Shown piece by piece: positions 5,022-42,947 of a stretch of DNA of 64,000 nucleotides. Positions within the stretch are counted from its first letter, which is position 1. The number at the start of each line of letters is the position of its first letter. Location of the stretch: the IMG/VR virus record IMGVR_UViG_3300036806_000429; one strand, given 5' to 3'. A program made the translations under genes and the position numbers. The DNA comes from a virus. The notes under the pieces are model-generated. The model searched no databases and was not told where the DNA came from. It saw only the letters and a list, made by a program, of their open reading frames with translations.

Positions 5022-6137
5022 CTAATCCCCCGCCAGCGCGCCGTACGTCAACGACTCCTCGGCCACGTCCACCGTTGTGCGGCAGCGAAAGTGGAAAGGA
5101 GGGAACAGCTGCCCGGCTTCGCTCAGCGCCTTGGCGCCCTTGCCCAGGAGCTCTGAGAGCTTGCCCGAGCCCAGCCACGGCTTGATGGCCTTGTATTCGT
5201 CCGGGTCGCCCGCCGCGTTCAATGCGGCGATCTGGTCCATCGCGTCACCCACCAGGAAGCTCGTTCCGTTGAGCTCGGCGCACTGCTCCGTCGTCCGGTC
5301 GTCCATGGGATTGACGAGCTCGTACCGCTCGATGCCGATGTTGGCGAAGCTGGTGAGCGTGCCTTGAACTCGAGCGTTGGTGACGGCGTTGGCGGCGAGC
5401 CCCTCGAAGTACTGGATGGCCGAGCCTGTGTAGCCTTCGGGCAGCTCCAGCGTTGCGAGCTTCTCCGCCACCGTATCCTCCACGATGGCGCCGGCCGCCT
5501 CCTTGCTCAGGCCCTCCACCAGCTTCGTGGTCAGCGCTTCGCGGATCGTTGGCGCCACGTTCTTGTAGGCGTCGCCGATCCAGATCATCTCCTGGGATTG
5601 GAGTGCGTCGATGGCGTGTTCATCCTTCACGTCGAAGCTGAACTTCAGGTCCATCGTCTTGCCGCCGCTCTTGCCGGCCTTCTGCACCTGCTCGGCGAAG
5701 TTGGGAACGTTGTATTGCAATGACGCCTTGGTCTTGCCGGTCGCCTTCTTCCAACCGGCACGGCGCCCGAGCCGGTACACGTCCTCCACGTTGCGTTGGT
5801 AGCCGGCGGACACGTCGCCCTTCCACTGCTTCATCGCAGCGTCGACAGCTCCAGCTGCGCCCTTCACGCTGCCGCCTCCGCGAACGACGGCCGCCGCGCT
5901 CTTGGCGGCTTGGTTCGCGCGCACCGTCCACTTCTTGTACAGTAGCTCGCGCGCGCGTTGTTCGATCCGAGCCATCTGAACGACCTCGGGCAACGCCAGC
6001 GCTTTGGCCACAAGCCGGTCCGACTCGCGCAGAAAGATGTCCAGCTGTTCGATGTTGGCGCAGGCCACGCACGCCTTGCGCGCCAAGATGATCAGCGGCG
6101 CCGGCTTCACTCGAGCTCGCCGCCCTGATCCTGCCAC
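5022..6137 (-). CDS. head morphogenesis protein, Mu F / SPP1 gp7 family
   Basis: NPMDDRTTEQCAELNG...PPFHFRCRTT signature. Follows the portal gene. Confidence 0.8.
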   Translation of the reverse strand: MAGSGRRARVKPAPLIILARKACVACANIEQLDIFLRESDRLVAKALALPEVVQMARIEQRARELLYKKWTVRANQAAKSAAAVVRGGGSVKGAAGAVDAAMKQWKGDVSAGYQRNVEDVYRLGRRAGWKKATGKTKASLQYNVPNFAEQVQKAGKSGGKTMDLKFSFDVKDEHAIDALQSQEMIWIGDAYKNVAPTIREALTTKLVEGLSKEAAGAIVEDTVAEKLATLELPEGYTGSAIQYFEGLAANAVTNARVQGTLTSFANIGIERYELVNPMDDRTTEQCAELNGTSFLVGDAMDQIAALNAAGDPDEYKAIKPWLGSGKLSELLGKGAKALSEAGQLFPPFHFRCRTTVDVAEESLTYGALAGD

Positions 6138-7984
6138 ATCTTGGTGACCATGGCGTTCAACGCGGTGAGCTTCTTGGCCACCTCGTCGCGCGGCGTGTTT
6201 TCGTCGATGCCCAACTGAAATTCGTTGTCATCGCCCAGGAAGCCCATCGCCTTCAAGGTCTTGATCGCCGTGACCTGCTGGCCGGGCTCAGCCGGGTCTG
6301 CCATGTTCTTCACGGCCTCGGCCATGGTCAGGCTGAACGGCGTGTCCGCCGGGAAGCCTTGTGGGAATTCGGGCAGGTCTTGGTTCAACACCTCGGCCAG
6401 GACGTGGCGCGCGATACGCGGCGTCATGCCGCCCGTCTTCTCGGCGCCTGCCAGGATCTTCACGAGCTCCGCGTTGTCCGTGGTGTTCGGGCTGTTGGAC
6501 TTGAATTTGTGGTAGATCACGTCCATCTCCGGGAACACGACGCGATTCACCAGAGCATCCCACTCGTCGCGCTCGGGCGCGAACACCTGCTCATCGGCGA
6601 TCCGCCGCGAGGCCTCCGCCGTCGCGCGGCTGTAGTCATCGGCGCGCCCCACGAAGATGGGCGGTAACCGGAACGCGCGGCGCACCTTGTCTTGGTTGTT
6701 CTTGGAATATTCTTGGAACAGAGCGTCTTTGTGCTGGTTGGTCGTGAGTGGCTTGATGTCGATCTTGACCTGCCCGCCGTCCTCGCCCTCCTCGCCGAAC
6801 GGCTCGCCCTCGACGATCAAGAATTTGCTGTAATTGTCGCTGCCTTGGATCTGGCTCTCCACGAACGACTGGATGCGGTCGATGGTGCCCTGGGTGAGCT
6901 GGCCGTTGGAGACGCACACCACCATCGACGGGATGTTGTTGTTGCGAAAAGTGATGTAGTTGATCTCCTCGCTGGCGCGGTCGCCGAAGATGCTCAGGAG
7001 GTTGCCGATGAAACGGGGCAGGCCATAGGGCGAGCGGGAACAGTAGATGCGCAGGTGCATCACCTCGTTGGCCTCGTCGCCCGGCTTCACGTCCTCCTTG
7101 TACTCGCCGGTGTGCTTGTCCATCTTCCGCGGATCGCCAAACTGCTTGAACCAGCGGATCTTGGTGCCAAGAACGGCCTGGAGCGAGCGGCCATAGACGG
7201 CGCGTGACTGCGCGAAGCGCCGGAAGCGCTTCCACTCCTTCACTTTCTTCACCGCCACCGAGCCGTCCGGCTGCAGCTCGACGATCTTGCGGTCCACCAG
7301 CATCGCCTCGTCGTCCAATCGCCCGAGGCGCATCTGATACGAGGGCATGTGCGTGAAGGCTTGGATCTCGCCGGTCTGGTTCCTGATCACCTCGAAGTAG
7401 GCGTTGCCTGTGGCTTCAAGGTCGCGCCGGCACTTCCGCCGGAACTGGACGAACGACTCGTCAGTGCAGTACATGAAGAAGTTGCTGATGCGTGCGAATT
7501 CTGCTTGGCTCTCTGCCACCTCCTTGGGCGCCTGCGCCTCGCGCGCGGGCGGCGTGGGGTCGCCACCAGCGGCCTTGTTGGTGGACTCGGATTGGCCCTC
7601 GGCCACGAAGGTCGGATCCACCGCGTCCTTCTTCAGGCGCGGGATGAAGCGATAGCCGAAGCCCTCGATGTTGACTTCCATCGCCTCGATGCACTGGTTC
7701 AGCTCGCTGTTGTGCTCGCACAGCATCGACAGCGTCAGCATGTCAAACGGCGGCTCGATGATCTTGCCCTGCTGCGACAGCGCGCTCCAGGGCTCCTCCG
7801 GCAGCGCCTCCGACGGCTCCGGCGCCGCGGAGCTCGACGTGGCCCCGTTCGCCTTTCGCACCTCGATGATCTTGGCGCTCACCTCACGGAGCGCTCCGTG
7901 GTTGGCTCCGTTCCCCGATGCGTTGGCCTTCTTGATGTCGACGACGTTGGGCGCTGCTTTGGACTCGGCTGCGGGCTCGCTCAT
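6107..7984 (-). CDS. portal protein
   Basis: 625 aa immediately downstream of the large terminase and upstream of the MuF-like gene. Called from size and synteny. The family was not determined. Confidence 0.8.
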   Translation of the reverse strand: MSEPAAESKAAPNVVDIKKANASGNGANHGALREVSAKIIEVRKANGATSSSAAPEPSEALPEEPWSALSQQGKIIEPPFDMLTLSMLCEHNSELNQCIEAMEVNIEGFGYRFIPRLKKDAVDPTFVAEGQSESTNKAAGGDPTPPAREAQAPKEVAESQAEFARISNFFMYCTDESFVQFRRKCRRDLEATGNAYFEVIRNQTGEIQAFTHMPSYQMRLGRLDDEAMLVDRKIVELQPDGSVAVKKVKEWKRFRRFAQSRAVYGRSLQAVLGTKIRWFKQFGDPRKMDKHTGEYKEDVKPGDEANEVMHLRIYCSRSPYGLPRFIGNLLSIFGDRASEEINYITFRNNNIPSMVVCVSNGQLTQGTIDRIQSFVESQIQGSDNYSKFLIVEGEPFGEEGEDGGQVKIDIKPLTTNQHKDALFQEYSKNNQDKVRRAFRLPPIFVGRADDYSRATAEASRRIADEQVFAPERDEWDALVNRVVFPEMDVIYHKFKSNSPNTTDNAELVKILAGAEKTGGMTPRIARHVLAEVLNQDLPEFPQGFPADTPFSLTMAEAVKNMADPAEPGQQVTAIKTLKAMGFLGDDNEFQLGIDENTPRDEVAKKLTALNAMVTKMWQDQGGELE

Positions 7985-7989
7985 GCCCG

Positions 7990-9456
7990 CTAGATTACGC
8001 CTGGCTCAGTGTCGCGGCGGCGCCGACGGCTTCTTGACTTGGACGCGCTTACGGCCATGTCGAAGGCGTCGAACAGATCCTTGTACCTGTGATTGGGAAA
8101 AAGCACCATGTGTTCGATCAGAAGCTGTTGTGACTTCATGAAGAACACCTTCTTGTCCTCGAAGATGGCCGACAGCTTCCAAGCGCGCGTCGTCTTGTCC
8201 TTGTCCGTCTTCAACGGCTTGAGCCGCAGCTCGGGCTTCGTCTCGCGCAGCGTTTGGTATTGGGCTTCCTGATATGCGTTGGTCTCAATCGCAATTCGGA
8301 TTGGGTCCCAACGCTTGGCGAAGTCGATGATCTTGGCCGTTTGGGCCGAGAAGCGCAGTTGGTCCTCGAAGTAGTCCAACACGTAGTAGGCCGTGCGCTC
8401 CGGCGTGACGCCGATGACGACGATCGCAAACTTGTCCGCCGTTTCCTTCTCGCTGATGGCGAGATCGACCCCCATGTACACACGGAGCTCGGACTTGTCG
8501 GGGCAATCCTTGTCGGGGATCTGCTGGCAGTCGTCGTACTGGAACACCTCGCCCTTCATGGCCTCGGTGTCGCATTGGTACTGGGCGTTGAAGATGATGA
8601 CGCCGGCTTTCCGGCGCTTCTCCGCGAACCACTTGGGCGGGTACTTCTTGGGCCAAGGCGAACGCCCGCGATGGTCCAGCCCCGGAACGATGTTGTGGTG
8701 CTCCTTCAGCTCGTTCGCGATGAGATGGCCGTACAGGTCGTCATAGTGGTACCTGGTGCCCAGCCGATGGTGCTCGCCGCGATGAGGCACGCTCGGGTCG
8801 GGCGGCTCCAGGGTCGGGTCCAGGGTCTGGTAGTACCACGTCCGCGTCTTGTCGCGTTGGTTCTTGGTGCGGCTGTTCTCCTCGTCCACCAAGTCGTCGC
8901 TGATGATCACATCGTAGTGCTTCGACACGATCGTGGTGTCGACGCCGACGCAAGTGATGGAAGCCTCCTTGTTGGGCCTCTTGCGCGGGAGCACTTCGAT
9001 CTCGCGGTTGTCCCACTTCGTGACCTTCCGCGGGTCGTAGTATTCGCCAAATATCTCAGCCAGAAGCTGGTTCGACTCGAAGTGGTTCTTGATCTCCTTC
9101 AGGAACCCTTCGGCGTTCGCCGCCGTCTTCGACGCCAACAGAATCCGCAGATCTGGATTCTTCAGCAGAAGGTGGATGGCCTTCGTGACCGTGCAGCTCG
9201 TCGTCTTGCCGGCGCCGCGGAAGGCGAGCTGAAGATTGTCAGGGTGGATGAACTGGAACCGCAACAGCTCGCGGTGGAACGGCTGCAGCTCGTTGCCCAG
9301 CACCACGTTCGCCAGGATGTCGATCCTGTTGTTCTGGATGACCTGGCGCTTGATCCACTCGTTGCCCATGCCCCGAGCGTGCTTGTACTGATCGATCAGC
9401 TCCGAGCGCTCGCCGGTGGCGATGGCTCGCTTGACAGCGAGCGACGCGACGGACAT
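7990..9456 (-). CDS. terminase large subunit
   Basis: Walker A FRGAGKTT, Walker B-like VIISDDLVDEE, and a C-terminal RNaseH-like nuclease region (YMGVDLAISE). Confidence 0.9.
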   Translation of the reverse strand: MSVASLAVKRAIATGERSELIDQYKHARGMGNEWIKRQVIQNNRIDILANVVLGNELQPFHRELLRFQFIHPDNLQLAFRGAGKTTSCTVTKAIHLLLKNPDLRILLASKTAANAEGFLKEIKNHFESNQLLAEIFGEYYDPRKVTKWDNREIEVLPRKRPNKEASITCVGVDTTIVSKHYDVIISDDLVDEENSRTKNQRDKTRTWYYQTLDPTLEPPDPSVPHRGEHHRLGTRYHYDDLYGHLIANELKEHHNIVPGLDHRGRSPWPKKYPPKWFAEKRRKAGVIIFNAQYQCDTEAMKGEVFQYDDCQQIPDKDCPDKSELRVYMGVDLAISEKETADKFAIVVIGVTPERTAYYVLDYFEDQLRFSAQTAKIIDFAKRWDPIRIAIETNAYQEAQYQTLRETKPELRLKPLKTDKDKTTRAWKLSAIFEDKKVFFMKSQQLLIEHMVLFPNHRYKDLFDAFDMAVSASKSRSRRRRRDTEPGVI

Positions 9457-14773: not shown

Positions 14774-14790
14774 CGCAAACTCTCTTACCC
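14774..14790 (-). promoter_or_regulatory. GGGTAAGAGAG box abutting a start codon
   Basis: The minus strand reads GGGTAAGAGAGTTTGCG-ATG. The same box recurs at 16895-16909, 18067-18082, 21454-21469 and 21526-21541. Confidence 0.4.
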
Positions 14791-14791
14791 T

Positions 14792-14807
14792 CGCCCGAGC
14801 TCGGGCG
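14792..14807 (-). terminator. palindromic hairpin after the collagen-like gene
   Basis: cgcccgagctcgggcg is a perfect 16-nt palindrome 8 nt after the stop. There is no U-tract. Confidence 0.35.
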
Positions 14808-14814
14808 GCTGAAT

Positions 14815-15576
14815 TCACGTCCCGTAGCGGTACGTGATGTAGGCCGTGGTGTACTTGTCGGTGTTCATGGGCACGCCGTTCACTTCGTCCTCCTGTCCGC
14901 AGCTCACCCAGATGCGGCCCGCGTCGATCCGGACCGGCGTCTGGACACATGTGGAATCCTGGTTGACGTTGCCCGTGCAGGTCACGCCGGTCTGGCCACA
15001 AACGTTCGCCGGAGCTGGCGCCACCGTGTGGTAGCAAGTCCAAGCAGACACGTACGCCAGGTTGCCATAGCCAATGTTGCCGTCAACGATCTCTGCCGTG
15101 TAGGTGGTGACCACGCGCCCGGCGGAGGTCGTGATCTGGCCGGCCTGCTTGCAAGCCACTTGGATGCCGGCGATGCCTGGCGTGCCCGCCGGGCCTTGGG
15201 CGCCCTTCGCGCCTTGGGGGCCAACGGCGCCCTGCGGACCGGTTGCGCCCGTTTGGCCCGGCGCGCCCGTCAAGCCTTGTGCGCCTTGGGGACCAACAGG
15301 GCCAACGGCGCCTTGGATGCCGCGGTCGCCTTGGTCTCCCTTCGGACCTTGGAGGCCGGTCGGGCCCTGCGGACCAACGTCGCCCTTGTCGCCCTTCGGA
15401 CCTTGCGGGCCGGCGACGCCAGCGGGGCCTTCGGGGCCCTGGGGGCCAACGGGTCCGGACGAGCCGACGAGGCCGGGCGTGCCGGAAGGACCGTTGCCGC
15501 CGGATGCGCCGGGGTCGCCGTTGCAAGCCGCCAGCGCCAAGAGCGTTGAGAGGATGAGAATGAGGTGCTTGTACAT
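14815..15576 (-). CDS. collagen-like repeat lipoprotein
   Basis: ATG 15576 with a GGAG SD. MYKHLILILSTLLALAAC is a signal peptide with a lipobox Cys. It is followed by 37 uninterrupted G-X-Y triplets and a Cys-containing globular C-terminus. Confidence 0.75.
   Translation of the reverse strand: MYKHLILILSTLLALAACNGDPGASGGNGPSGTPGLVGSSGPVGPQGPEGPAGVAGPQGPKGDKGDVGPQGPTGLQGPKGDQGDRGIQGAVGPVGPQGAQGLTGAPGQTGATGPQGAVGPQGAKGAQGPAGTPGIAGIQVACKQAGQITTSAGRVVTTYTAEIVDGNIGYGNLAYVSAWTCYHTVAPAPANVCGQTGVTCTGNVNQDSTCVQTPVRIDAGRIWVSCGQEDEVNGVPMNTDKYTTAYITYRYGT
15160..15492 (-). repeat. G-X-Y collagen triplet repeat coding region
   Basis: I counted 37 consecutive GXY triplets in the translated protein. Confidence 0.85.
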
Positions 15577-16894: not shown

Positions 16895-17024
16895 GCAAAC
16901 TCTCTTACCTTGCGTCTTTTCTTGTGTCGTTCTGAACAGCGCTTCTGATTCTGTGCCAGTTCCGTGCGAGGGTAAGAAGGTTTTTTGGCAGGGTAACTGC
17001 GTTAAAACGGAGGGTAATTGCGTT
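16895..17024 (-). promoter_or_regulatory. operator-like box cluster
   Basis: The minus strand reads AACGCAATTACCCT, AACGCAGTTACCCT (24-nt register) and CTTCTTACCCT, then an inverted GGTAAGAGAGTTTGC ending 33 nt before ATG 16861. Confidence 0.45.
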
Positions 17025-17031
17025 GTGTGTT

Positions 17032-17647: not shown

Positions 17648-18066
17648 TACTTTCCCTCTTTCTTTGGTTTGGGGCGTGGCGCGGGGTATTGGTCGGCGCG
17701 AACGTACTCCACGGGCACTGAGTTGAAGCCGTCGAAGGTGCCCTGTGGCGTGAGCGTTTCGGTAGGGTCCGTGAGCAGCACGCCGCCGAGCGCGCCCTGG
17801 TACGTGCCGATAAGGACCCAGACGCGCTCGGGCGGCGCCGTCTTCGGATCCAACTGGAACGCCTCGCGCGGGACCTTGGCCACGATGTTGCCGTGCCCGT
17901 CGCTGAGCTTGAACTTGCCCTGGTGGGTTCCGATGACGACGGCCCACTGCCGTTCACGCAGCGTCGCCTGTGTGATACCCTTGTGGCCGGCCTGGTGGAC
18001 GTCACGCAGGAGGCGCACGAGGCGCCCGACGTAGCCGTTGTTGGTCTGGGGTTCGGACTTTGCCAT
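17647..18066 (-). CDS. hypothetical protein
   Basis: ATG 18066 is preceded directly by GGGGTAAGAGGGTTGC. Confidence 0.5.
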   Translation of the reverse strand: MAKSEPQTNNGYVGRLVRLLRDVHQAGHKGITQATLRERQWAVVIGTHQGKFKLSDGHGNIVAKVPREAFQLDPKTAPPERVWVLIGTYQGALGGVLLTDPTETLTPQGTFDGFNSVPVEYVRADQYPAPRPKPKKEGK

Positions 18067-18082
18067 GCAACCCTCTTACCCC
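18067..18082 (-). promoter_or_regulatory. GGGTAAGAG box abutting a start codon
   Basis: The minus strand reads GGGGTAAGAGGGTTGC-ATG. TCAGCC lies 18 nt upstream of TAAGAG. The 14790 copy has TCAGCC 19 nt upstream. Confidence 0.4.
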
Positions 18083-18098
18083 TTAAACCCTTTAAGGG
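18080..18098 (-). terminator. hairpin after the HTH gene
   Basis: cccttaaa-ccc-tttaaggg lies 8 nt after the stop at 18106. Confidence 0.35.
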
Positions 18099-18105
18099 CT
18101 GACGT

Positions 18106-19221
18106 CTAGCGGCCGGGCGCAGGGAACAGGGCTAGCGCCGCCTCGTACCAAGCAGCGCGCTTCTCCGGATCCGCCGGGATGGGCGTTAGCGCTTCGAGCT
18201 TCGGCAGGTAGGCGTGCAGAGCCTCCAGCTGTTTCGCGCCGAGCGCCGGCCTGGAAGCGGCGGCGCGCTCGGATGCCAGCGCTGTCTTCGTGAGGTCGAG
18301 CTCTTGCCTCACGGCCTCCAGGCGCTCCTGCGTCTTGGACAGTATCTCTGCGTTGTTGGCCGACACGATGTCGCTGGCCTTTGCTTCGCCCTCCAACAGA
18401 TTGACCTTTCGCCCGAGCGCCTCCGCAGCCTCGCGCGTTGCGCGGAGCTCGCGCTGCAGCTCGTGCTCGCGCGCGATGTCTTTCAACGGGTCGGCGCCGG
18501 TATCGTCGGCGCCGTCGCGCGCCTCCAGCAACACGTCCAACGAGACGCCGGTCACCTCGCTGAGCTTCAACAGCGCGTCGTCGTCCGGCTTCACGTCGCC
18601 CAGCTCGATCTCGCTGAGCTTCCCGTACGTGACGCCGACATGCGGCGCGAACGTCCTTTGGTCGTGGCGCCGTTTCAAGCGCTCCGCGCGGAAGATGTTG
18701 CCGATGGCTGTCAACTCGTGCGTCTGGCGCGTACGCTTCGCACGGAGCCGTTTGGCTGTCGGCGCCGCGAGCGCCTGCGTGTCGTCCGGCGGGCTGGAAG
18801 ATGGCGCGCCGTCCTTGGGCGGCTCGTCGCCGAACGCGGCCCAAGCCGGTTGGCTGTCCACCTCCGGATCAAGCTCTGGCTCCGCCTCTGCCTTCTTTTC
18901 GGGGAGGTCGAAGCTGACCAGGCCGGAGCCGAGCAACGTCTTGGCTCGGATGGGCGTGGGCTCGTCCACGGGCGCGGGCTTCTTGATGTCGTCCAAGCCG
19001 GTCCCTGGCGGGTAAAGGTCCGTCCAGAAGGCGAAGCTGATGTGCCCGCCCGCGGTGGCCTTCAGCTCAACGCCGCGGCGTTGTGACGAACGGATCTTGC
19101 CATGGATGAGCTTCAGCGTGTTGTTGATGGTCTTGGCGTGGACGACCTCATCGCCGCGGCGGAGCTTCTCTCGCCAGATCTTCAGACCGTTCAAGTCCAT
19201 CTTTTTCTGTTGCGCCATCAT
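18106..19221 (-). CDS. XRE-type helix-turn-helix protein with a long coiled-coil C-terminus
   Basis: The central TFAPHVGVTYGKLSEIELGDVKPDDDALLKLSEVTGVSLDVLL matches the HTH_XRE pattern. 371 aa. Confidence 0.6.
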   Translation of the reverse strand: MMAQQKKMDLNGLKIWREKLRRGDEVVHAKTINNTLKLIHGKIRSSQRRGVELKATAGGHISFAFWTDLYPPGTGLDDIKKPAPVDEPTPIRAKTLLGSGLVSFDLPEKKAEAEPELDPEVDSQPAWAAFGDEPPKDGAPSSSPPDDTQALAAPTAKRLRAKRTRQTHELTAIGNIFRAERLKRRHDQRTFAPHVGVTYGKLSEIELGDVKPDDDALLKLSEVTGVSLDVLLEARDGADDTGADPLKDIAREHELQRELRATREAAEALGRKVNLLEGEAKASDIVSANNAEILSKTQERLEAVRQELDLTKTALASERAAASRPALGAKQLEALHAYLPKLEALTPIPADPEKRAAWYEAALALFPAPGR

Positions 19222-19954: not shown

Positions 19955-20041
19955 CCTGTGGTCTCCGGTCTACAAATGGTCGTGGGTCGGGTAACTGGGT
20001 TAGGTGGTTCTAGTTGGCGGGTCGTCGGCTGGCTGAACGCC

Positions 20042-20618: not shown

Positions 20619-21140
20619 TCACTTCACTTTGCGACTGGGCCACTGGTTGAACAGCTTGCCCAAGACGGAGACGTTCACGATTTGCTGCGTCCGCCACTTC
20701 TCCTTCGAGCCGTCCGCCTTCGTGACCGTCAGCTCCGAGAAGCCCCAGACGTGGCTGCCTTCGAGGGTGGCCGAGACGTGGGCGCCGACCTTGCTCTCCA
20801 ACTTCCGGATGAACAGCGTGTACTGCTCCGAGGCCATGGTGCCTGCTTCCTTCACGAAGCGTTGGACGGCCTCCTCGCTGCGCTCGTACTTCGGAGTCAT
20901 CGTGGTGCCCGTGTTCGTCACGAGGTGGAGGAGCCGGGCGCGGCGGCTGCTCTGCTCCTGGCGCTCGCGGCGGCCGAGCAGCACGCTCGGGTATTCGTAG
21001 CGCTGCGGGAAGGCCGCGAAGTCCGTCAGTGTGGCTTCCGCGAGCAGGCGCGCTTCCTTCTCGGCGCGCTCGACAGTGGCGGCGCGGAGCGGTTCGACGG
21101 CTGCTGCGATGGCGGTGGGCGTCGTGGTGCTGTTGTGCAT
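20619..21140 (-). CDS. hypothetical protein, first gene of a predicted leaderless operon
   Basis: ATG 21140 lies 6 nt downstream of the TATACC -10 of promoter copy 2. The N-terminus is MHNSTTT. Confidence 0.55.
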   Translation of the reverse strand: MHNSTTTPTAIAAAVEPLRAATVERAEKEARLLAEATLTDFAAFPQRYEYPSVLLGRRERQEQSSRRARLLHLVTNTGTTMTPKYERSEEAVQRFVKEAGTMASEQYTLFIRKLESKVGAHVSATLEGSHVWGFSELTVTKADGSKEKWRTQQIVNVSVLGKLFNQWPSRKVK

Positions 21141-21146
21141 GTCCTA

Positions 21147-21176
21147 GGTATACGGCCTGTGGATGCAGGAGTCGAG
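21147..21176 (-). promoter_or_regulatory. copy 2 of the six-copy promoter element (CTCGAC-N18-TATACC)
   Basis: AAAAAAGTTCTCGAC, then an 18-nt spacer, then TATACC, then 6 nt to the ATG. Confidence 0.5.
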
Positions 21177-22313
21177 AACTTTTTTGGAGATGGCTGATCT
21201 TTTTGCCTATGTGTGGAAGAACATTGGGGGCGGTTCGGTTGTTCTGCTGTGCGTGCGGGCCAGGCAAGGCCACGGCACGGCAAAGTTCCACGAAAACCAC
21301 ACAAGTGGGGGTGGGGAGGCTCCCTTTGCCCATGAATACCCAAGCATCGTACGTACCCACCATCCACAATACCAAAGCGTGGAAGCGCCAGCACAGCAGG
21401 GCGGGGCGGCTCGTGGAAGCACGCTGCTCGGCGATCCGTACGCGCGAGCCCGAGGGTAAGAGAGTAACATTGGATACAAGGGTAAGTAGGTAACAATACG
21501 TCTAGCGTAGGGGCGGACTACAGACTGTTACTCTCTTACCCTATCGTATGTAACCCAGTCACCCTAATAGAGAGTCTTGTAAGCCTCTGTCGGCGCCCTC
21601 TCTTGCTATGGCCTAACCTACTTACCCTGTATGCCAATTGCCTCCCAGGCACACCCACATTGGCGATTACGGATTGTCCACGATTGATAGGGGATTCTCT
21701 ATATGTAACCCTATTACCCTATAGCGTATACGTACGCGCCCCCATACGCTGTAACCCAATTACCCTATTGGCTACCACGATCGCCCATAATATACACAGG
21801 ATTATGGCTGTTGGGTCTGTGTTGTGGAAGCACCGAGCATGGTGGCTGTTGTGTGGTGGAAGTGTGCATCGCACAGCCAGCAGGGTTTCTACAGCGTCAC
21901 GGAGAACATCCCGGAGCCTTCCGCGTTCGCGTTTCCGGGGCGAGCTCGGCCGCTCCGTCACCACCGTTCTAGCCGCGAATTCCTGGGCCTTCCGCTTTCC
22001 TGGGGCAGGGCGGCAGAGTAGTCCTCCGCGCGCGTCTCCGTCCGTCTTCGTTCTACTTCCTAGGTGCTTTCGTAGTTGTGGTGGTATTTCACAGGGTGGG
22101 TGGCTGTGGCAGATCGTGGGCGAAGCGTCTGCTATGGTGGGCTGAAATGGTGGGTTTCGAGGCACAAGCCGTTGGCGAAAAACCCATGTCTCTGAAAATG
22201 GCCATTCCGCGATGGTGGCAAAACAGTCCGTAGCAAGCTCCGCCCGCTAGTGCCAAAGTCTGATGCCTAACTCAGTTACCCAACCTAGTTACCCGCGAAG
22301 GCGGGAAACAGCG
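21177..22313. repeat. non-coding, lower-GC gene desert packed with short repeat families
   Basis: No GC3-biased ORF is present. It holds a perfect 16-bp inverted repeat GGGTAAGAGAGTAACA (21454-21469 / 21526-21541), at least 8 further TTACCC/GGGTAA boxes, 5 plus-strand GTGGAAG boxes and 4 ATGGTGG boxes. Confidence 0.7.
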
Positions 22314-24260
22314 TTAGGTCCAGCGCGGCGTTGCGTCGTAGCCAGCAGGTTTGCTGTGAACTCCGAGGCCGCGTGCTAGCCGGCTCGCTTCGATGGACCG
22401 AACGTCGAGAGCGCGCGCTAGGCTTCCGACTCCGTGACAATTCGGACACAGCGGCGCATCGAGGTGCGTGATCGCGGCATGGTCGCCAAGCGGGCATGGC
22501 ACTAGCTCCACTTTGTACAGGTCCGCCTGCAGGACGCACGCCCGGCTCCGATCGCGATGCGTCTGCCCAGGAACGTCCACCCAAGCGCCCGCTCCGTCCA
22601 GGCTCCGGAACGACACCAGCACGCTCCGCGTCGCGTCGAACAGCAGCTCAGCGATGCCGGGGTGCGCGAGGCCTCCGTGCGTCTCGAGCGCCCTTAGCAG
22701 CGATGGTACCTCGTAGCGTTCGAGTTTTGCGATGCTTCCAGCACGGGCGGGTGGTGGCTCGGGCATGTCGAGCGTGTCCAATGTTGGTCCGCCGGGCCCG
22801 AGCGCGAACACCACCGGCTCACCATCGCGCCCGAACAAGATCGCGCTGTCGACGTGCCCGGACACCGGTGCTATCTCGATATCATCGATGGACGGCGTGT
22901 CGTCCAATGGCTTGCCGATGTCTTCCGGCTTCCGGCCCTTGAAGTACAGCGCGCCGCGCCCGGAGCGTGTCCGGTCGTCCTCGCCGACCGTGATCACGTA
23001 GTGACTCGGCTTCCCGTCGCGCGTGATCACTTTGATCTCGTCGCCGGCTCCGATGGTTATGGTTTTTGGCAACCCTTCCACAAGGCCCAGCTCGCTCATC
23101 AGCCGCGTGTCGGCAACTTCGCGCTCGGCATCTGTGAGGCGCGAGCGAGCCAACAACGGTGGCATTACCTTGCCAGGGTCCATCTCGAGCGCCGCGATCG
23201 TGACGGCGCGCCCGGCCAGCTTCGTCGCCTCCGTCGCCACCATCTCCAGCAGCCTGCTCTTGCCCGCGCGCAGTCCGGGCATCCAGAGGCTGCGCCGCGG
23301 CTTCGCGGGCGGATCGTCGATGAAGCGCGCCTCGTGAATGCTCACCGTTCCGTCCGGCGCCTTCGACATCGTCACGACAGCGCTGCGGTCGCCCTCGCCG
23401 CCCGGGTCGACTCCGAACAACACCGGATGGCCCGCGGCCAAGGCTTCCCGCACGGAGTCCATGCTGGGCGGCTCGCTCGTTTCCACGGGCAGCCCGGTTA
23501 GCATCGCGCCACCGACTGCTGCGCTGCCTTCGATCTTGATCGGGCGCAGCTTCTGGAACGTGATCAGCACGAGCTCGCGCGTGGGGCGGCTCGGGTCGGC
23601 GCCACGGCTGAGCTCCCGGAAGGCGTACGAGTCGCCGGAGGGCGCTACCAGGATCGACTCGCGGCGAAGGCGATGGAGCGTCTCATCCACAGGTAGCGCC
23701 CAGGAGCGCACGATGCGCTGCAAGGCTTCCACGTCCTCCACCGCTAGGCCTTCGCCTTCCACCACGATCAGCGGCTCGCCTGTCAACTTGGGCACTTCGT
23801 CCCAGATCGTGGTGATTCTTGGGAATTCAAACGTGAATGACGGCATCTCTGGGAACGCGCAAGCCGATGGCGCGCCAGGATACACCAGCTTTTCTTCCGT
23901 CGTGGCCTCGTCCCATTTCATCCGGTCCAGCGGCGTAGCCGGCTTCACTTCCACGGTGCTGCGCTTCCCGAGCGCCTTCCACCAGCGTTCGATCTCGTCC
24001 GTCTTCTGAAAGCTCCAATCCTCGCTGGTAGCGCGCAGATTGAGCACCAGCGCGTCTGCCAACGCTGCGGGCGCTAGCGTGACGCCCGCATCCACCAGGT
24101 AGCCGGCCAAGGCCTCCGGCAAGATGCCCAGAACCCCAGAAAGCTTGCGCAGTTGCTCGGTCGCGATGACCTTGTCCAGCGGCTTGTCGGGCCACTCGAG
24201 CTCTGGCGGCGCCTCCTCGTCGGCTTCGCGCGCCGCCTCCCTGAAGGCGTCGAGCTTCAT
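22314..24260 (-). CDS. MKL-leader family protein (648 aa)
   Basis: ATG 24260 gives MKLDAFREAA (the track is over-extended to 24383). C-terminal CPNCHGVG knuckle. Confidence 0.6.
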   Translation of the reverse strand: MKLDAFREAAREADEEAPPELEWPDKPLDKVIATEQLRKLSGVLGILPEALAGYLVDAGVTLAPAALADALVLNLRATSEDWSFQKTDEIERWWKALGKRSTVEVKPATPLDRMKWDEATTEEKLVYPGAPSACAFPEMPSFTFEFPRITTIWDEVPKLTGEPLIVVEGEGLAVEDVEALQRIVRSWALPVDETLHRLRRESILVAPSGDSYAFRELSRGADPSRPTRELVLITFQKLRPIKIEGSAAVGGAMLTGLPVETSEPPSMDSVREALAAGHPVLFGVDPGGEGDRSAVVTMSKAPDGTVSIHEARFIDDPPAKPRRSLWMPGLRAGKSRLLEMVATEATKLAGRAVTIAALEMDPGKVMPPLLARSRLTDAEREVADTRLMSELGLVEGLPKTITIGAGDEIKVITRDGKPSHYVITVGEDDRTRSGRGALYFKGRKPEDIGKPLDDTPSIDDIEIAPVSGHVDSAILFGRDGEPVVFALGPGGPTLDTLDMPEPPPARAGSIAKLERYEVPSLLRALETHGGLAHPGIAELLFDATRSVLVSFRSLDGAGAWVDVPGQTHRDRSRACVLQADLYKVELVPCPLGDHAAITHLDAPLCPNCHGVGSLARALDVRSIEASRLARGLGVHSKPAGYDATPRWT

Positions 24261-24478
24261 CGCTGGTTCCTGGCTTCCAGTCGTCGCAGCGCGGCGCGGC
24301 GCCGGAGCTCGTACGGAACAGCGCGCGCGAAGTTGAAGGCGAAGGCCGCGACGCACGTCCAGAACGTGAAGATGCCGGCCCACCCGGCCAACCAGGTCAG
24401 CAGGCGCGCCGCGTACCAGAGCGCGACGAGCAAGAAGCTACCGGCCAACACGAGCGCGGAGGCGAATGCCGTGAACAT
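24257..24478 (-). CDS. small membrane protein (2 TM)
   Basis: ATG 24478 gives MFTAFASALVLAGSFLLVALWYAARLLTWLAGWAGIFTFWTCVAAFAF. ATGA overlap downstream. Confidence 0.5.
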   Translation of the reverse strand: MFTAFASALVLAGSFLLVALWYAARLLTWLAGWAGIFTFWTCVAAFAFNFARAVPYELRRRAALRRLEARNQR

Positions 24479-29956: not shown

Positions 29957-30156
29957 GCTTGGCCTTCGAGCTCGACGACCGTGTTGCCGTCGGAGTCCTC
30001 GATGATGACGTCGCGGTTGGTGCGCTTCACCAAGTAGTCGGCGAATTCGCGAGCCGCCGCGAGGGTGAGGCCCTCGGCGCGCGGGGCGCGGGCGCCCGGC
30101 ATGATCTCCGCGAATTCCGAACCGCTCTTGCGTACGCTGTAGGTCGTGTTGTTCAT
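29953..30156 (-). CDS. hypothetical protein, first gene of a predicted leaderless operon
   Basis: ATG 30156 lies 7 nt downstream of the TATGTT -10. The N-terminus is MNNTTYS. Confidence 0.5.
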   Translation of the reverse strand: MNNTTYSVRKSGSEFAEIMPGARAPRAEGLTLAAAREFADYLVKRTNRDVIIEDSDGNTVVELEGQA

Positions 30157-30163
30157 GAAGAGA

Positions 30164-30193
30164 AACATAGCTCCTATGCTTCCACAAGTCGAG
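30164..30193 (-). promoter_or_regulatory. copy 3 of the six-copy promoter element (CTCGAC-N18-TATGTT)
   Basis: AAAAAAGTTCTCGACTTGTGGAAGCATAGGAGCTATGTT, then 7 nt to the ATG. Confidence 0.5.
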
Positions 30194-30237
30194 AACTTTT
30201 TTGTAGTTGGTTGAACTTTTCTTCGTATGTTGGCAAA

Positions 30238-30993: not shown

Positions 30994-31215
30994 TCAGACG
31001 TGGTAGGCGACATCTTGCGAGCCGCCGACGATGTGGCTGTTGATCTGCTTCGCGGCCCGGAGCTCGCCGAGCGCGGCGCGAACGACGCGAAGGTTGGGGC
31101 GGTTCACGATCAAGCCGAGGCGGAAGCAAACCACTTCTGCCGTCGCCGCGCGGCCGTTGAGCGCGCCACGAACCGCCGTCTTGATCGTCGCCATGTTCTT
31201 CGTCGTCGTGTTCAT
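30994..31215 (-). CDS. hypothetical protein, first gene of a predicted leaderless operon
   Basis: ATG 31215 lies 7 nt downstream of the TATGTT -10. The N-terminus is MNTTTKN. Confidence 0.5.
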   Translation of the reverse strand: MNTTTKNMATIKTAVRGALNGRAATAEVVCFRLGLIVNRPNLRVVRAALGELRAAKQINSHIVGGSQDVAYHV

Positions 31216-31222
31216 GAGAGGA

Positions 31223-31252
31223 AACATAGCCCCTCTGCTTCCACACGTCGAG
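31223..31252 (-). promoter_or_regulatory. copy 4 of the six-copy promoter element (CTCGAC-N18-TATGTT)
   Basis: TTGACTTTTTTCTCGACGTGTGGAAGCAGAGGGGCTATGTT, then 7 nt to the ATG. Confidence 0.5.
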
Positions 31253-31280
31253 AAAAAAGTCAACGCCTGCTAACTTTTCT

Positions 31281-35242: not shown

Positions 35243-35612
35243 GCGAACCGCCTGAGCAGTAGCGCTCGAACATCGCCGTGAGCACGGCGTCCATGGCGTT
35301 GCCGACGCGAACGCCGCGCGCTCGATGCAGCGGCCCCCGCTCCAGCACGTCGTCCGACGAAGCCTTAGCGACGAGGCGATGGCGGACGCGGCGCGCGGAG
35401 TTGGGCCAAGGCTTATCGGCCGTGTACTGCCAATCCAACTTTGCGTACGGATCCTCAACCAGCGCGGCCTCCGCCGCGGCGAAGACGGAGCCGGCGGCCG
35501 CCCCGAGCTCCTCCGGCGAGAGCTCACCGGCCTTGTTCGGGTAGACCTCCACCGACACGCACGGGACGGCGCTGGACTCGCCGAGCCGCCCGCGGCTGAT
35601 TCCGAAGCTCAC
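35235..35612 (-). CDS. hypothetical protein
   Basis: GTG 35612 in a GTGA overlap. Confidence 0.5.
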   Translation of the reverse strand: MSFGISRGRLGESSAVPCVSVEVYPNKAGELSPEELGAAAGSVFAAAEAALVEDPYAKLDWQYTADKPWPNSARRVRHRLVAKASSDDVLERGPLHRARGVRVGNAMDAVLTAMFERYCSGGSHD

Positions 35613-36151
35613 TTGCCCGCTTCCTTCAACAACGCACGAACCCGCTCCAGCTCTTTCGCCGTGTGGACCACGCCGCCGCTGTTCATCTCCAGGTACCAAC
35701 GGAGAACGGCGGCGCGCGTCTCCAGGTGATTGACGTGCCAGTTGAAGAAACAGGTGGTCAAACGCGGCGTGTCCTCGAAGTCACGCCGCAGCAAGGTGCC
35801 GCTGCCGAGCTCCGGGAAGTGGACGGCGAGGCGATTGTTCATGAAGCGGCGGACGGCCTCCAAGCGCTGCTTCCCATCCACGATCACGTACGGCCCGCGC
35901 CAGTCGCGCATCCAACCGACGCAGTTGAAGTACAGGTCCTTGCCGGACCCTCCGCCGCGCAGGATGAATTCCACATAGCGCGCGCGCTTCTCGTCGTTCC
36001 AGACGTGCGCCCGTTGGAAGTCCGGCTCCAGGTCGAGCGGCGCCGAATCCTCCTGCGTCTGTTTTTCGATGTGCCGTTCCAGGTAATCCCAGCCGACCGT
36101 GACGCAGTACGCGCCCGGCTGGGTGAGCTTCTTGATCTGTTCGAATTTCAC
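35609..36151 (-). CDS. DUF262-like (ParB/Srx-fold nuclease-type) domain protein
   Basis: GTG 36151 with an AAGGAGAG SD. PDFQRAHVWNDEKRARYVEFILRG...YVIVDGKQRLEAVRRF matches the DUF262 xxFQRxxVW...DGQQR pattern. Confidence 0.6.
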   Translation of the reverse strand: MKFEQIKKLTQPGAYCVTVGWDYLERHIEKQTQEDSAPLDLEPDFQRAHVWNDEKRARYVEFILRGGGSGKDLYFNCVGWMRDWRGPYVIVDGKQRLEAVRRFMNNRLAVHFPELGSGTLLRRDFEDTPRLTTCFFNWHVNHLETRAAVLRWYLEMNSGGVVHTAKELERVRALLKEAGK

Positions 36152-36600
36152 GATGCTCTCCTTGCCATCAGGTTGGCACAGTCTGGGCCCAAGCCGCTCT
36201 CGATGGACTCGGGCACGGTCAGCTTGCGTCCGCAGCGCCCGCAGATGCCCTCGTGCCAAACCTCCACCTTGTCGGCGAGCTGCTGGCTGAGCTGCGACGG
36301 AAAGAGCGCCTGCCGGCAGAACCAGCCGAAGGCGACGACGGACGGCGCCTCTGCCTTCGCGAAGCTCTTGCGGCCACCGTGGTGGAAACGCCGCTCGCGG
36401 ATGAATCCGATGTAGCGGTAATCACCGGTGTTGTCGGCGCCCGCCAGGAGCCTCACGAACCAGACGCCGGGCGAGGTGGCCGCCTGGATCTTGAACGTGA
36501 AGCGCGTTCCGGTCGCGATGGACCGGACCGTGAGCGTGGCGTTGCCGGCAAGGGCGAATTTGGCGATGGCCTCGCCGTTGAGGCGCGCGGCGGCGATCAC
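36148..36600 (-). CDS. hypothetical protein with a DUF6011-like C-terminal zinc ribbon
   Basis: CGRCGRKLTVPESIESGLGPDC at the C-terminus (recall of the CGRCGRxLTxPxSxxxGxGPxC motif). Confidence 0.55.
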   Translation of the reverse strand: MIAAARLNGEAIAKFALAGNATLTVRSIATGTRFTFKIQAATSPGVWFVRLLAGADNTGDYRYIGFIRERRFHHGGRKSFAKAEAPSVVAFGWFCRQALFPSQLSQQLADKVEVWHEGICGRCGRKLTVPESIESGLGPDCANLMARRAS

Positions 36601-37086: not shown

Positions 37087-37292
37087 GACGCACCGCAGAA
37101 GGATGAGAAGTTGACGGAGGCCGGCGCGCCGAGCTTGGTCTGCGCGAAGCGGCAGGCGCCGATGAGGGCGCGCGCCTCGGACACGGACCAGGAGGTGCGC
37201 GAGCCGGCGAGCGCCCGAGCCTCGCCGACGAGGCCACGGACGACGAGACGGGCGACCTGAACGCCCAGTTGCATTTTCTTCGTGTTGCTCAT
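37083..37292 (-). CDS. hypothetical protein, first gene of a predicted leaderless operon
   Basis: ATG 37292 lies 6 nt downstream of the TATAAC -10. The N-terminus is MSNTKKM. Confidence 0.45.
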   Translation of the reverse strand: MSNTKKMQLGVQVARLVVRGLVGEARALAGSRTSWSVSEARALIGACRFAQTKLGAPASVNFSSFCGAS

Positions 37293-37298
37293 GCTTCT

Positions 37299-37328
37299 GT
37301 TATACGGCCGCTGCTTCCACAAGTCGAG
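37299..37328 (-). promoter_or_regulatory. copy 5 of the six-copy promoter element (CTCGAC-N18-TATAAC)
   Basis: TTGACTTTTTTCTCGACTTGTGGAAGCAGCGGCCGTATAAC, then 6 nt to the ATG. Confidence 0.5.
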
Positions 37329-37346
37329 AAAAAAGTCAACGGTTGA

Positions 37347-40649: not shown

Positions 40650-40656
40650 GGAGGGA

Positions 40657-40686
40657 AGCATAACCGCTTCACTTCCACGCGTCGAG
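40657..40686 (-). promoter_or_regulatory. copy 6 of the six-copy promoter element (CTCGAC-N18-TATGCT)
   Basis: AAAAAAGTTCTCGACGCGTGGAAGTGAAGCGGTTATGCT, then 7 nt to the ATG. Confidence 0.5.
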
Positions 40687-40714
40687 AACTTTTTTGGAGT
40701 TGGATGAAGAAAGT

Positions 40715-42160: not shown

Positions 42161-42364
42161 TCACTTTTCCCTTGCGTTGTAGCAGGCTTGGCTGCAGTAA
42201 GCCTTGGATTTGTAGGTTTCCCCGCCGCACTTCTTGCAGCGGACGATCCTGAAGATGGTCAGCGAGCCGTCGGCGACGAGGCGCTTGAATAGCGTCGCCT
42301 CTGCGACCGTCATGTAGGGCTTGTCCGGCTTGAACCGCAACAGGAAGGTGTCAACCAGTCCCAC
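42161..42364 (-). CDS. hypothetical small zinc-ribbon protein
   Basis: CKKCGG...CSQAC. ATG 42313 is an alternative start. Confidence 0.4.
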   Translation of the reverse strand: MGLVDTFLLRFKPDKPYMTVAEATLFKRLVADGSLTIFRIVRCKKCGGETYKSKAYCSQACYNAREK

Positions 42365-42908: not shown

Positions 42909-42947
42909 TTGGCCTCGCGGAAGGTACGCTGCTTTGGGCCTTGGCGT

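What the first reader, a model, noticed from the sequence alone, without database searches (positions are those of the whole stretch)
21177..22313. 1.1 kb gene desert packed with three families of short repeats: candidate origin, regulatory hub or genome-end region
This is the only long non-coding stretch in a genome where genes otherwise overlap. It is visibly less GC-rich and has no GC3-biased ORF.

Seen in sequence:
- A perfect 16-bp inverted repeat GGGTAAGAGAGTAACA at 21454-21469 and 21526-21541, 56 bp apart. A third near-copy, GGGTAAGTAGGTAACA, lies between the arms at 21480-21495.
- Plus-strand TTACCC boxes at about 21623, 21714, 21761, 22276 and 22289. Two of them are extended repeats TGTAACCC(T/A)ATTACCCTAT (21704-21722 and 21749-21768) that flank an AGCGTAT...ATACGCT hairpin.
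- Five plus-strand GTGGAAG boxes (21213, 21379, 21413, 21824, 21856). This heptamer sits in the spacer of the six-copy promoter, but here in the opposite orientation and without -10 hexamers.
- Four ATGGTGG boxes (21839, 22134, 22147, 22212).

Inference: these could be iteron-like binding arrays for a phage initiator or repressor, decoy or titration sites for the factor that recognises the promoters, a packaging or terminal region, or a structured ncRNA locus.
Basis: partly seen in the sequence, partly recalled or inferred. Interest (0 to 1): 0.65.

Follow-up and report, generated by a model that had tools for sequence, protein, structure and literature searches.

The report
Conserved phage control region with iterons
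The 1.2-kb gene-free stretch is a real non-coding control region, conserved across an uncultured group of large soil phages and packed with binding-site repeats for an unidentified DNA-binding protein that most likely switches the downstream genes and may also mark where DNA replication starts.

Summary
Window 21141-22313 is the longest stretch without coding signal, is G+C-poorer, and holds the repeats listed. The inverted repeat and the TTACCC boxes are one family: a bipartite 17-19-bp unit, tgTAACcC(A/T)nTTACCCTa. It has 9 copies in the gap (7 one way, 2 the other). Six more copies lie outside, all in short intergenic spacers between 14.7 and 20 kb (0.02 expected).

Homologous gaps occur in three other metagenomic phage lineages (L004; L151/L086/L139; L157). 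They share the same iterons, an AT-rich core that is the least stable duplex in each sequence, conserved blocks and the same leaderless-type promoter. Iteron core positions are 94% identical to the closest relative, against 68% between iterons. No tRNA, Rfam hit, RNA covariation, hidden gene or GC-skew break was found, and the cluster is internal in a 116-kb contig.

Best reading: a protein-binding control region (operator/iteron array) governing the downstream gene block (about 0.45). The main rival, not exclusive, is an iteron-plus-unwinding-element replication origin (about 0.33). The binder is unidentified; the conserved 371-aa HTH protein is only a circumstantial candidate. This is a new member of a known kind, of moderate interest.

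The parts
21141..22313 (.). Whole non-coding control region, between the stop of the 689-aa orphan gene (22314-24383, minus) and the ATG (21140) of the 173-aa gene (20619-21140, minus)
   Evidence: No codon-position GC signal. Longest gene-free stretch. The gene calls of the public contig leave it empty.
21147..21187 (-). Promoter of the downstream block. Read on the minus strand: A-tract CCAAAAAAGT (21178-21187), -35-like TCTCGACT (21170-21177), 17-nt spacer, -10-like TATACC (21147-21152), then 6 nt to the ATG (leaderless-type)
   Evidence: Member of a 5-copy promoter family in the window. Conserved in L003, L004, L151, L086 and L157. Function is inferred from the consensus; it is not shown.
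21199..21230 (-). Conserved block B3 (sense CCCCCAATGTTCTTCCACACATAGGCAAAAAG), about 50-80 nt upstream of the start. It contains one CTTCCAC box.
   Evidence: 100% identical in L003 and L004. The core CCCCAATG..C(T/A)TCCACA is conserved in L151, L086, L139 and L157.
21258..21311 (-). Conserved blocks B2 (GCCTTGCCTGGCC) and B1 (CCCCACTTGTGTGGTTTTCGTGGAAC)
   Evidence: Aligned and largely invariant in all five gap sequences, and present in L157.
21451..21469 (-). Iteron (left arm of the perfect 17-bp inverted repeat)
   Evidence: Identical in L004 and conserved in all lineages.
21477..21495 (-). Iteron
21526..21544 (+). Iteron (right arm of the inverted repeat)
   Evidence: Identical in L004.
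21549..21567 (+). Iteron
   Evidence: Conserved in all five aligned gaps.
21612..21630 (+). Iteron
21631..21703 (.). AT-richer core between iterons. The least stable 40-bp duplex of the whole 64-kb window starts at 21684 and runs into the iteron at 21704.
   Evidence: Nearest-neighbour stability scan: rank 1 at 21684 and rank 2 at 21459. The equivalent tract ranks 1 in L151, L157, L086 and L139.
21704..21722 (+). Iteron (one of the two best matches to the consensus, TGTAACCCTATTACCCTAT)
21750..21768 (+). Iteron (one of the two best matches to the consensus)
   Evidence: Conserved in all five aligned gaps.
22266..22297 (+). Two overlapping distal iterons (22266-22284 and 22279-22297) at the far edge of the gap. 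They overlap a GC hairpin (22292-22305) just after the stop of the upstream gene.
   Evidence: L151 likewise has an iteron at the distal gap edge (7907).
21800..22260 (.). Distal, iteron-free part. It holds CCACCAT/ATGGTGG boxes (21839, 22134, 22147, 22212), two GTGGAAG boxes (21824, 21856) and a 21-nt direct repeat (21908 and 21979).
   Evidence: No relative of the window's own lineage covers this part. The equivalent part is conserved within clade L151/L086/L139.
16895..17027 (.). Secondary iteron cluster (16895+, 16967-, 16988-, 17009-; three sites at 21-bp spacing) upstream of the operon that starts at 16861
   Evidence: The same 3+1/3+2 arrangement occurs at the homologous place in L157 (13337-13496) and L058 (487-647).
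14775..14793 (+). Single iteron-like site abutting the ATG at 14773, preceded by a GC hairpin
18066..18084 (+). Single iteron-like site abutting the ATG at 18066, directly downstream of the HTH gene
19986..20004 (-). Single iteron-like site in the 87-bp spacer upstream of the gene that starts at 19954
18106..19221 (-). 371-aa XRE-type HTH protein: circumstantial candidate for the iteron-binding factor
   Evidence: Pfam HTH_3. It is the only window protein shared with all the iteron-bearing loci that have enough flank to judge: L003, L151 and L157. However, its recognition-helix residues vary between lineages.

Best explanation
The gap is a conserved non-coding control region of a large (>=106 kb), uncultured soil phage.

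Its core is an array of nine bipartite 17-19-bp sites (two 8-bp-phased half-units, TAACCC and TTACCC). The array surrounds the most easily melted DNA of the window. About 300 bp of conserved blocks follow, then a leaderless-type promoter for the 173-aa gene.

Proposed mechanism: a phage-encoded sequence-specific DNA-binding protein occupies the array cooperatively. The resulting nucleoprotein complex does two things. It blocks or insulates transcription arriving from the promoter-dense early region upstream. It also sets the activity of the promoter at 21147-21187.

The same protein acts at the secondary cluster (16895-17027) and at the single sites (14775, 18066, 19986). Together these sit in four of the five intergenic spacers of the gene block between the gap and the virion genes. 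That block therefore behaves as one regulon.

Shown here: the sites, their non-random distribution, their site-by-site conservation, the conserved synteny and the conserved promoter.

Inferred: that a protein binds the sites, which protein it is, and whether the effect is repression, roadblock or activation.

The array may also serve as a replication origin (see rival 1). The two roles are not exclusive.
For: - One motif family, 9 copies in the gap.
- A matrix trained only on the relatives' clusters finds 8 copies in the gap and 6 outside, against 0.02 expected from shuffles. All 6 outside hits lie in the 2.8% non-coding DNA of the 12.6-28.2 kb region.
- The outside sites occupy four of the five spacers of 39 bp or more in the 14.7-21 kb block, and none elsewhere in the window.
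- The same layout occurs in L151 and L157: a main cluster in a 1.2-1.5-kb gap, with scattered sites in downstream spacers. The secondary cluster keeps its arrangement in the window, L157 and L058.
- The gap aligns to L004 at 76.6% nucleotide identity, equal to the flanking genes (75-78%), whose proteins are 70-81% identical.
- Iteron core positions are 94% identical to L004 against 68% between sites. Across clades the figures are 67-77% against 37-39%.
- The promoter and three upstream blocks are conserved in all lineages.
- Sites occur in both orientations and abut start codons in either orientation. That fits DNA operators, not promoters or RNA elements.
- An XRE-HTH protein co-occurs with the element in all lineages that have enough flank.
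Against: - No binding protein is identified. The HTH candidate's recognition helix is not conserved, although the iteron consensus is.
- Eight to eleven operators within 320-400 bp is unusually many for a promoter that lies about 280 bp away.
- The array always encloses the least stable DNA of the locus, which a purely transcriptional role does not require.
- No transcription data exist: only two low-depth DNA metagenome runs hold the sequence.
- Orientation and spacing of the sites are not conserved between clades.
Confidence: 0.45

Rival explanations
1. Replication origin. The iterons are initiator-binding sites arranged around an AT-rich DNA-unwinding element. Initiator binding melts the core and loads the replisome of this phage, which encodes a DnaE-type polymerase. 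The dispersed copies are auxiliary or autoregulatory sites. This may coexist with the regulatory role.
For: - There are 8-11 sites of 17-19 bp within 320-400 bp, in four lineages.
- The least stable 40-bp duplex of the whole 64-kb window lies in the array (21684, with 21459 second). The equivalent tract ranks first in L151, L157, L086 and L139, at 28-30% G+C in genomes of about 60%.
- In L157, three sites point one way and five the other, around this tract.
- No sigma-70-like promoter is predicted in the AT-rich cores.
- The phage encodes its own replication and recombination proteins.
- [AT]TCCAC boxes, which share the DnaA-box core, are 2-4-fold enriched in all three gaps.
- It is the largest non-coding region, and is more conserved than its flanking genes.
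Against: - No initiator, helicase or primase gene is adjacent to the gap or recognisable in the window.
- The replication genes lie 20-40 kb away.
- There is no GC-skew inflection at the gap.
- Orientation is mixed and spacing irregular, unlike classic 22-bp-phased direct iterons.
- Full DnaA-box matches are not enriched, and the one TTGTCCACG is not conserved in L004.
- The iterons are themselves AT-rich, which partly explains the low stability.
- Origin iterons would not be expected in nearly every intergenic spacer of the next 7 kb.
Confidence: 0.33
2. A site for DNA handling other than initiation: a packaging (pac/cos) recognition array, a physical genome end, or a centromere-like site for positioning phage DNA. 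It would be bound by a small terminase or a ParB-like protein.
For: - Arrays of short repeats in mixed orientation are typical of terminase-binding and centromere sites (background knowledge).
- Several low-coverage assemblies break inside the gap (X2 contigs; L003 and L004).
Against: - The breaks fall at four different positions (21245, about 21355, 21762, 21954), not at one end.
- The cluster is internal in the 116-kb contig, at about 92.5 kb. It is also internal in the window's own contigs, one of them >=106 kb.
- The large terminase gene is 11.7 kb away in the window and 17.5 kb away in L157.
- No ParA, ParB or integrase was seen among the proteins scanned.
- This reading does not explain the dispersed copies at gene starts.
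Confidence: 0.08
3. A non-coding RNA locus: the conserved blocks and repeats are parts of one or more structured RNAs.
For: Long conserved non-coding sequence. The region lies downstream of a gene and could be transcribed by read-through.
Against: - No Rfam family at gathering or permissive thresholds, and no tRNA or tmRNA.
- Sliding-window fold z-scores are unremarkable except at the DNA inverted repeat.
- RNAalifold covariation terms are unfavourable for both the promoter-proximal blocks (+2.96) and the distal part (+0.69).
- The motif occurs in both orientations.
- There is no promoter/terminator pair.
Confidence: 0.04
4. No function: chance repeats in relaxed, AT-richer spacer DNA, or a decayed gene.
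For: Coding DNA of the same genome is at least as k-mer-repetitive. The adjacent 689-aa orphan gene shows that the locus is plastic.
Against: - Conservation across four lineages equals or exceeds that of the flanking genes.
- Selection is site-specific.
- Shuffle controls are exceeded.
- No frame carries a coding signal.
Confidence: 0.01

Closest known systems
Iteron-type replication origins (phage lambda ori; P1 oriR/incA; plasmid RK2 oriV; satellite phage P4 ori plus crr). From background knowledge.
   Same: Multiple 17-22-bp binding-site repeats clustered next to an AT-rich, easily melted tract. Inverted copies occur alongside direct ones. A second cluster lies kilobases away, as with P4 crr or P1 incA.
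   Different: No initiator gene is adjacent or identified. Orientation is mixed and spacing irregular, not 22-bp phased. Copies sit in almost every intergenic spacer of the following gene block. Replication is untested.
Dispersed asymmetric operators of phage repressors: Cluster A mycobacteriophage stoperators (PMC9283540, PMC6550527) and P1 C1 operators (background knowledge)
   Same: The site is asymmetric and bipartite. It recurs in short intergenic spacers, where it could block elongating RNA polymerase or control promoters. PMC9283540 shows that one monomer with two DNA-binding domains can read such an asymmetric site.
   Different: Stoperators are spread across the phage genome (PMC9283540) and, from background knowledge, favour one orientation relative to transcription. 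Here the sites are confined to about 8 kb, occur in both orientations, and are dominated by one dense array of nine. No repressor, integrase or other sign of a temperate lifestyle was found in the window.
Start-associated sequences (SAS/ESAS) of Cluster K mycobacteriophages (PMC3203893)
   Same: A short conserved asymmetric motif restricted to the non-structural part of the genome. Some copies lie immediately upstream of start codons (14775 and 18066 abut the ATG). Nearby 17-bp inverted repeats are present. Function is unknown but conserved.
   Different: SAS is a 13-bp motif (GGGATAGGAGCCC). It is almost always in one orientation and tied to translation starts. Here most copies are in a gene-free array, in both orientations, far from any start.
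Non-coding control regions of small DNA viruses (polyomavirus NCCR) and the Mu operator/enhancer region. Functional analogy from background knowledge.
   Same: One compact non-coding region combines clustered, bidirectional binding sites for one viral protein, an AT-rich tract and a promoter. It couples transcriptional switching with replication.
   Different: There is no sequence or protein homology. This is an analogy of layout only.

Membership tests
Iteron-type replication origin | Several copies of a 17-22-bp initiator-binding repeat clustered in a few hundred bp | tested here: met
   Nine copies in 21451-22297, seven of them within 320 bp. There are 8-11 copies in L151, L086, L139 and L157.
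Iteron-type replication origin | Adjacent AT-rich DNA-unwinding element | tested here: met
   The least stable 40-mer of the 64-kb window is at 21684. The equivalent tract ranks first in four relatives. The iterons themselves contribute to the low stability.
Iteron-type replication origin | Direct repeats in one orientation with helical (about 22-bp) phasing | tested here: not met
   Orientations are mixed. Spacings range from 13 to 124 bp, and only some pairs are 21-23 bp apart.
Iteron-type replication origin | Cognate initiator (Rep) gene adjacent or identifiable | tested here: not met
   The flanking genes are an orphan and a phrog_4687 protein of unknown function. No Rep, helicase or primase domain was found in the proteins scanned. 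The rest of the >=106-kb genome was not available.
Iteron-type replication origin | Supports (phage-dependent) autonomous replication; replication initiates there | not testable with these tools
   No raw reads or cultured phage are available. GC skew shows no inflection at the gap, which is weak evidence against.
Dispersed-operator repressor system (stoperator / P1 C1 type) | Asymmetric operator recurring in intergenic DNA well beyond chance | tested here: met
   Six sites outside the gap against 0.02 expected, all in non-coding spacers. The same holds in L151 and L157.
Dispersed-operator repressor system (stoperator / P1 C1 type) | Orientation bias relative to transcription | tested here: not met
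   Both orientations are used in the gap and in the spacers.
Dispersed-operator repressor system (stoperator / P1 C1 type) | Identified cognate repressor and temperate lifestyle | tested here: inconclusive
   An XRE-HTH protein co-occurs with the element, but its recognition helix varies. No integrase or partition genes were seen in the window. There are no clustered copies of the iteron in 185,579 bacterial genomes.
Start-associated sequences (Cluster K SAS/ESAS) | Motif positioned a few bp upstream of start codons, in one orientation | tested here: not met
   Only 2 of 15 copies abut an ATG (14775, 18066). Most copies are in gene-free DNA, in both orientations.
Packaging site / genome terminus | Located at the physical end of the genome or next to the terminase genes | tested here: not met
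   The cluster is internal in a 116-kb and a >=106-kb contig. It is 11.7 kb from the large terminase gene. Read termini could not be examined.
Structured non-coding RNA | Match to a known family or conserved secondary structure with covariation | tested here: not met
   No Rfam match. Covariation terms are unfavourable. There is no z-score signal. Power is low, with 3-5 sequences.

The most novel reading that the evidence does not exclude
A single phage protein reads a bipartite, 8-bp-phased site and uses one non-coding region as both replication origin and master operator. The same site in nearly every spacer of the next gene block would then couple the start of DNA replication to the switch from early to middle/late transcription. 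This would define the shared control logic of a previously undescribed clade of roughly 110-kb soil phages.
Probability: 0.15. Interest if true: 0.7.

Novelty: new member of a known kind. Interest (0 to 1): 0.45.

Why it matters
The element is the most conserved non-coding feature of an uncultured clade of large soil phages. It outlasts the genes that flank it, so it marks an essential cis-acting function.

It gives a concrete handle on how these phages organise their gene-expression programme, and possibly their replication: a defined 17-19-bp site, a small regulon and a candidate protein.

The motif also works as a sequence tag for recognising members of the clade in metagenomes where protein searches fail. 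Here it recovered L018/L151, L086, L139 and L058.

It does not at present point to a new kind of mechanism.

Tried and rejected
- Hidden or decayed gene: no frame has a GC3 signal. Rejected.
- tRNA, tmRNA or a known RNA family: none.
- Structured RNA: no z-score signal and no covariation.
- Origin by GC skew: no breakpoint near 22 kb; the best two-segment break is at 49 kb.
- DnaA boxes: only the short [AT]TCCAC core is modestly enriched. Full boxes are not, and the single TTGTCCACG is not conserved in L004.
- Protelomerase/telomere site, prompted by the adjacent 689-aa gene and the inverted repeat: the protein has no Pfam hit, is an orphan, and is absent from relatives at this position. The repeat arms are 56 bp apart, not a contiguous palindrome. 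Rejected.
- The motif as a promoter for a phage polymerase: both orientations occur, and some copies leave no room before the ATG. Rejected.
- Close relatives by DNA or protein in deposited phages and IMG/VR: none.
- Exact inverted-repeat probe: no hits in any collection.
- Prophage or plasmid carriage: only single matches, at about the chance level (my estimate), in bacterial genomes.
- Read-level analysis: only low-depth assembled contigs from two soil runs were available.
- The 173-aa gene as a synteny anchor: it is a widely exchanged gene. L005-L008 carry it without the gap.

Full report
**Context.**
The window is about 65% G+C, and almost all genes are on the minus strand. It belongs to a phage-like genome.
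- Virion genes: large terminase (7990-9456), portal (6107-7984) and capsid-type genes.
- Replication and recombination genes: a DnaE-type Pol III alpha (54268-58131), RecA, an SbcC-like protein and a 5'-3' exonuclease.
- Source: the sequence occurs in two soil-metagenome runs and on public contigs, the longest 106 kb.
- Relatives: no deposited phage is similar at the DNA level. Hallmark proteins reach only about 30-35% identity to known phages.

**Observation.**
- The gap runs from 21141 to 22313, between the stop of a 689-aa gene (22314-24383, minus) and the ATG of a 173-aa gene (20619-21140, minus).
- It has no codon-position GC signal and is the longest such stretch. Public gene calls leave it empty.
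- The three most frequent 7-mers are AGGGTAA, CTTCCAC and ATGGTGG. None of 300 dinucleotide shuffles reaches the observed number of recurring 7-mers.
- Coding DNA of this genome is equally k-mer-repetitive. The excess is therefore relative to composition only.

**Anatomy.**
The inverted repeat and the TTACCC boxes form one family, a 17-19-bp unit.
- From 81 sites in seven sequences, the unit reads tgTAACcC(A/T)nTTACCCTa. It is made of two 8-bp-phased half-units with a variable centre.
- Nine copies lie in the gap: 21451-, 21477-, 21526+, 21549+, 21612+, 21704+, 21750+, 22266+ and 22279+.
- The left edge of the gap is a promoter. Read on the minus strand it is CCAAAAAAGT-TCTCGACT, 17 nt, TATACC, then 6 nt to the ATG.
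- That promoter belongs to a family with five copies in the window. All are followed by an ATG 6-7 nt after the -10 element. Four carry TGTGGAAG in the spacer, and the copy at the gap does not.

**The motif outside the gap.**
- A weight matrix finds further copies only at 14775+, 16895+, 16967-, 16988-, 17009-, 18066+ and 19986-.
- With a matrix trained only on the relatives' clusters, six of these score above threshold, against 0.02 expected from shuffles. All six lie in the 2.8% of that region that is non-coding.
- They occupy four of the five intergenic spacers of 39 bp or more between the gap and the virion genes.
- Two of them abut start codons.

**Relatives.**
- The 689-aa protein is an orphan.
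- The 173-aa protein has homologs. The closest, at 70% identity, lies on L003 and L004.
- L004 carries 622 bp of upstream DNA. This aligns with window 21762-21141 at 76.6% identity, the same as the neighbouring genes at 75-78%.
- A probe of three core units, followed by matrix filtering, recovered true clusters in four contigs. These are L018 (from a 116-kb viral contig), L086, L139 and L058.
- L151 is 20 kb around L018. It shows homologs of the window's early genes, then a 1.3-1.5-kb gap with 10-11 iterons. The same promoter type follows, then small genes and a homolog of the window's 371-aa HTH protein. Isolated iteron sites sit in the downstream spacers.
- L157 was found through the HTH protein. 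It has the same synteny up to the terminase and a gap of about 1.2 kb. Three iterons point one way, then comes a 50-bp tract of about 30% G+C, then five iterons point the other way.
- L157 also has a secondary cluster that matches the window's 16895-17027 and the cluster in L058.
- In the five-way alignment, four iterons, three non-iteron blocks and the promoter are conserved throughout.
- Iteron core positions are 94% identical between the window and L004, against 68% between sites. Across clades the figures are 67-77% against 37-39%.
- The flanking genes are not conserved between lineages. The element therefore outlasts its neighbours.

**What it is not.**
- RNA: no tRNA or Rfam match, no fold signal apart from the DNA inverted repeat and no covariation.
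- Genome end: the cluster is internal in large contigs. The assembly breaks in low-coverage data fall at different positions.
- Prophage or plasmid: bacterial genomes hold no clustered copies.

**Function.**
- The evidence establishes a conserved array of protein-binding-type sites. It forms part of a small regulon-like set, upstream of a conserved promoter.
- I favour a transcriptional control hub, at about 0.45. One activity explains both the array and the spacer sites, and both orientations are used, as for operators.
- The array could block read-through from the promoter-dense early region and set the promoter at 21147-21187. These steps are inferred.
- The main rival is a replication origin, at about 0.33. 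In the window and in four relatives, the least stable 40-bp duplex lies inside the array. The array is also unusually dense.
- Against an origin: no initiator gene is recognisable, the skew has no inflection and the spacing is irregular.
- The two roles may coexist.
- The binder is unknown. The HTH protein co-occurs with the element, but its recognition helix varies while the site does not.

**Comparison with known systems.**
- Iteron origins: the layout resembles them, but two defining features were not met (phasing, adjacent initiator).
- Stoperators: the layout resembles dispersed asymmetric operators such as stoperators (PMC9283540), but without an orientation bias or an identified repressor.
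- Cluster K SAS/ESAS (PMC3203893): the resemblance holds only for the two start-abutting copies.

It is best filed as a new sequence family of a known kind of cis-acting element. Interest is moderate.

Noticed in passing
window 21147-21187, 30140-30200, 31200-31260, 37280-37335, 40640-40700 (minus strand): A five-copy promoter family: an A- or T-tract, then TCTCGAC, about 17 nt, TATnnT, and 6-7 nt to an ATG. This implies leaderless mRNAs. Four copies carry TGTGGAAG in the spacer. L151 has at least 7 copies, about one per kb in its early region.
   Followed up: partly
window 22314-24383 (minus): The 689-aa ORF next to the gap is an orphan. Its only match among 5.8 billion proteins is itself, and it has no Pfam or PHROG hit. 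Relatives L151 and L157 have different genes at this position.
   Followed up: partly
window 16895-17027; L157 13337-13496; L058 487-647: A secondary iteron cluster (three direct sites at about 21-bp spacing, plus one or two inverted sites). It is conserved upstream of the operon that contains the homolog of window gene 16194-16565/16661.
   Followed up: partly
window 14815-15576 (minus): A collagen-like Gly-X-Y repeat protein (Pfam Collagen, weak hit, in the public gene call). It produces the 9/18-nt periodic DNA repeats at 15157-15459.
   Followed up: no
window 51949-53289 (minus): A 446-aa, very acidic and lysine-rich low-complexity protein with no family match. It is the source of most long direct repeats in the window.
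   Followed up: no
window 58368-61588, 42351-43766 (minus): A cluster of nucleotide-metabolism genes: a class-III aminotransferase, a thymidylate-synthase-like protein, a thymidylate-kinase-like protein, a UDG-superfamily protein and a dCTP-deaminase-like protein. This suggests a modified base in the phage DNA.
   Followed up: no
window 35609-36259 (minus): A protein with a GmrSD_N (type IV restriction endonuclease N-terminal) domain, encoded inside the phage early region.
   Followed up: no
window 20619-21140 (minus): The 173-aa protein (phrog_4687, function unknown) has 40-60% identical homologs in Vi01-like enterobacterial phages and in many metagenomic contigs that lack the gap. It is a widely exchanged gene.
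   Followed up: partly
window 14794-14808, 18085-18100, 22292-22305: Three sense-oriented iteron copies directly follow a short GC-rich hairpin at the end of the upstream gene. This may be a terminator-plus-binding-site module.
   Followed up: no
window 18106-19221 (minus); A4: The HTH protein has three conserved modules separated by proline-rich or coiled-coil linkers. They are an N-terminal WRxxxRRG...FAFWTDLYP module, the HTH_3 domain, and a C-terminal EKRxAWYEAAL motif. The N-terminal module could be a second DNA-binding domain.
   Followed up: partly
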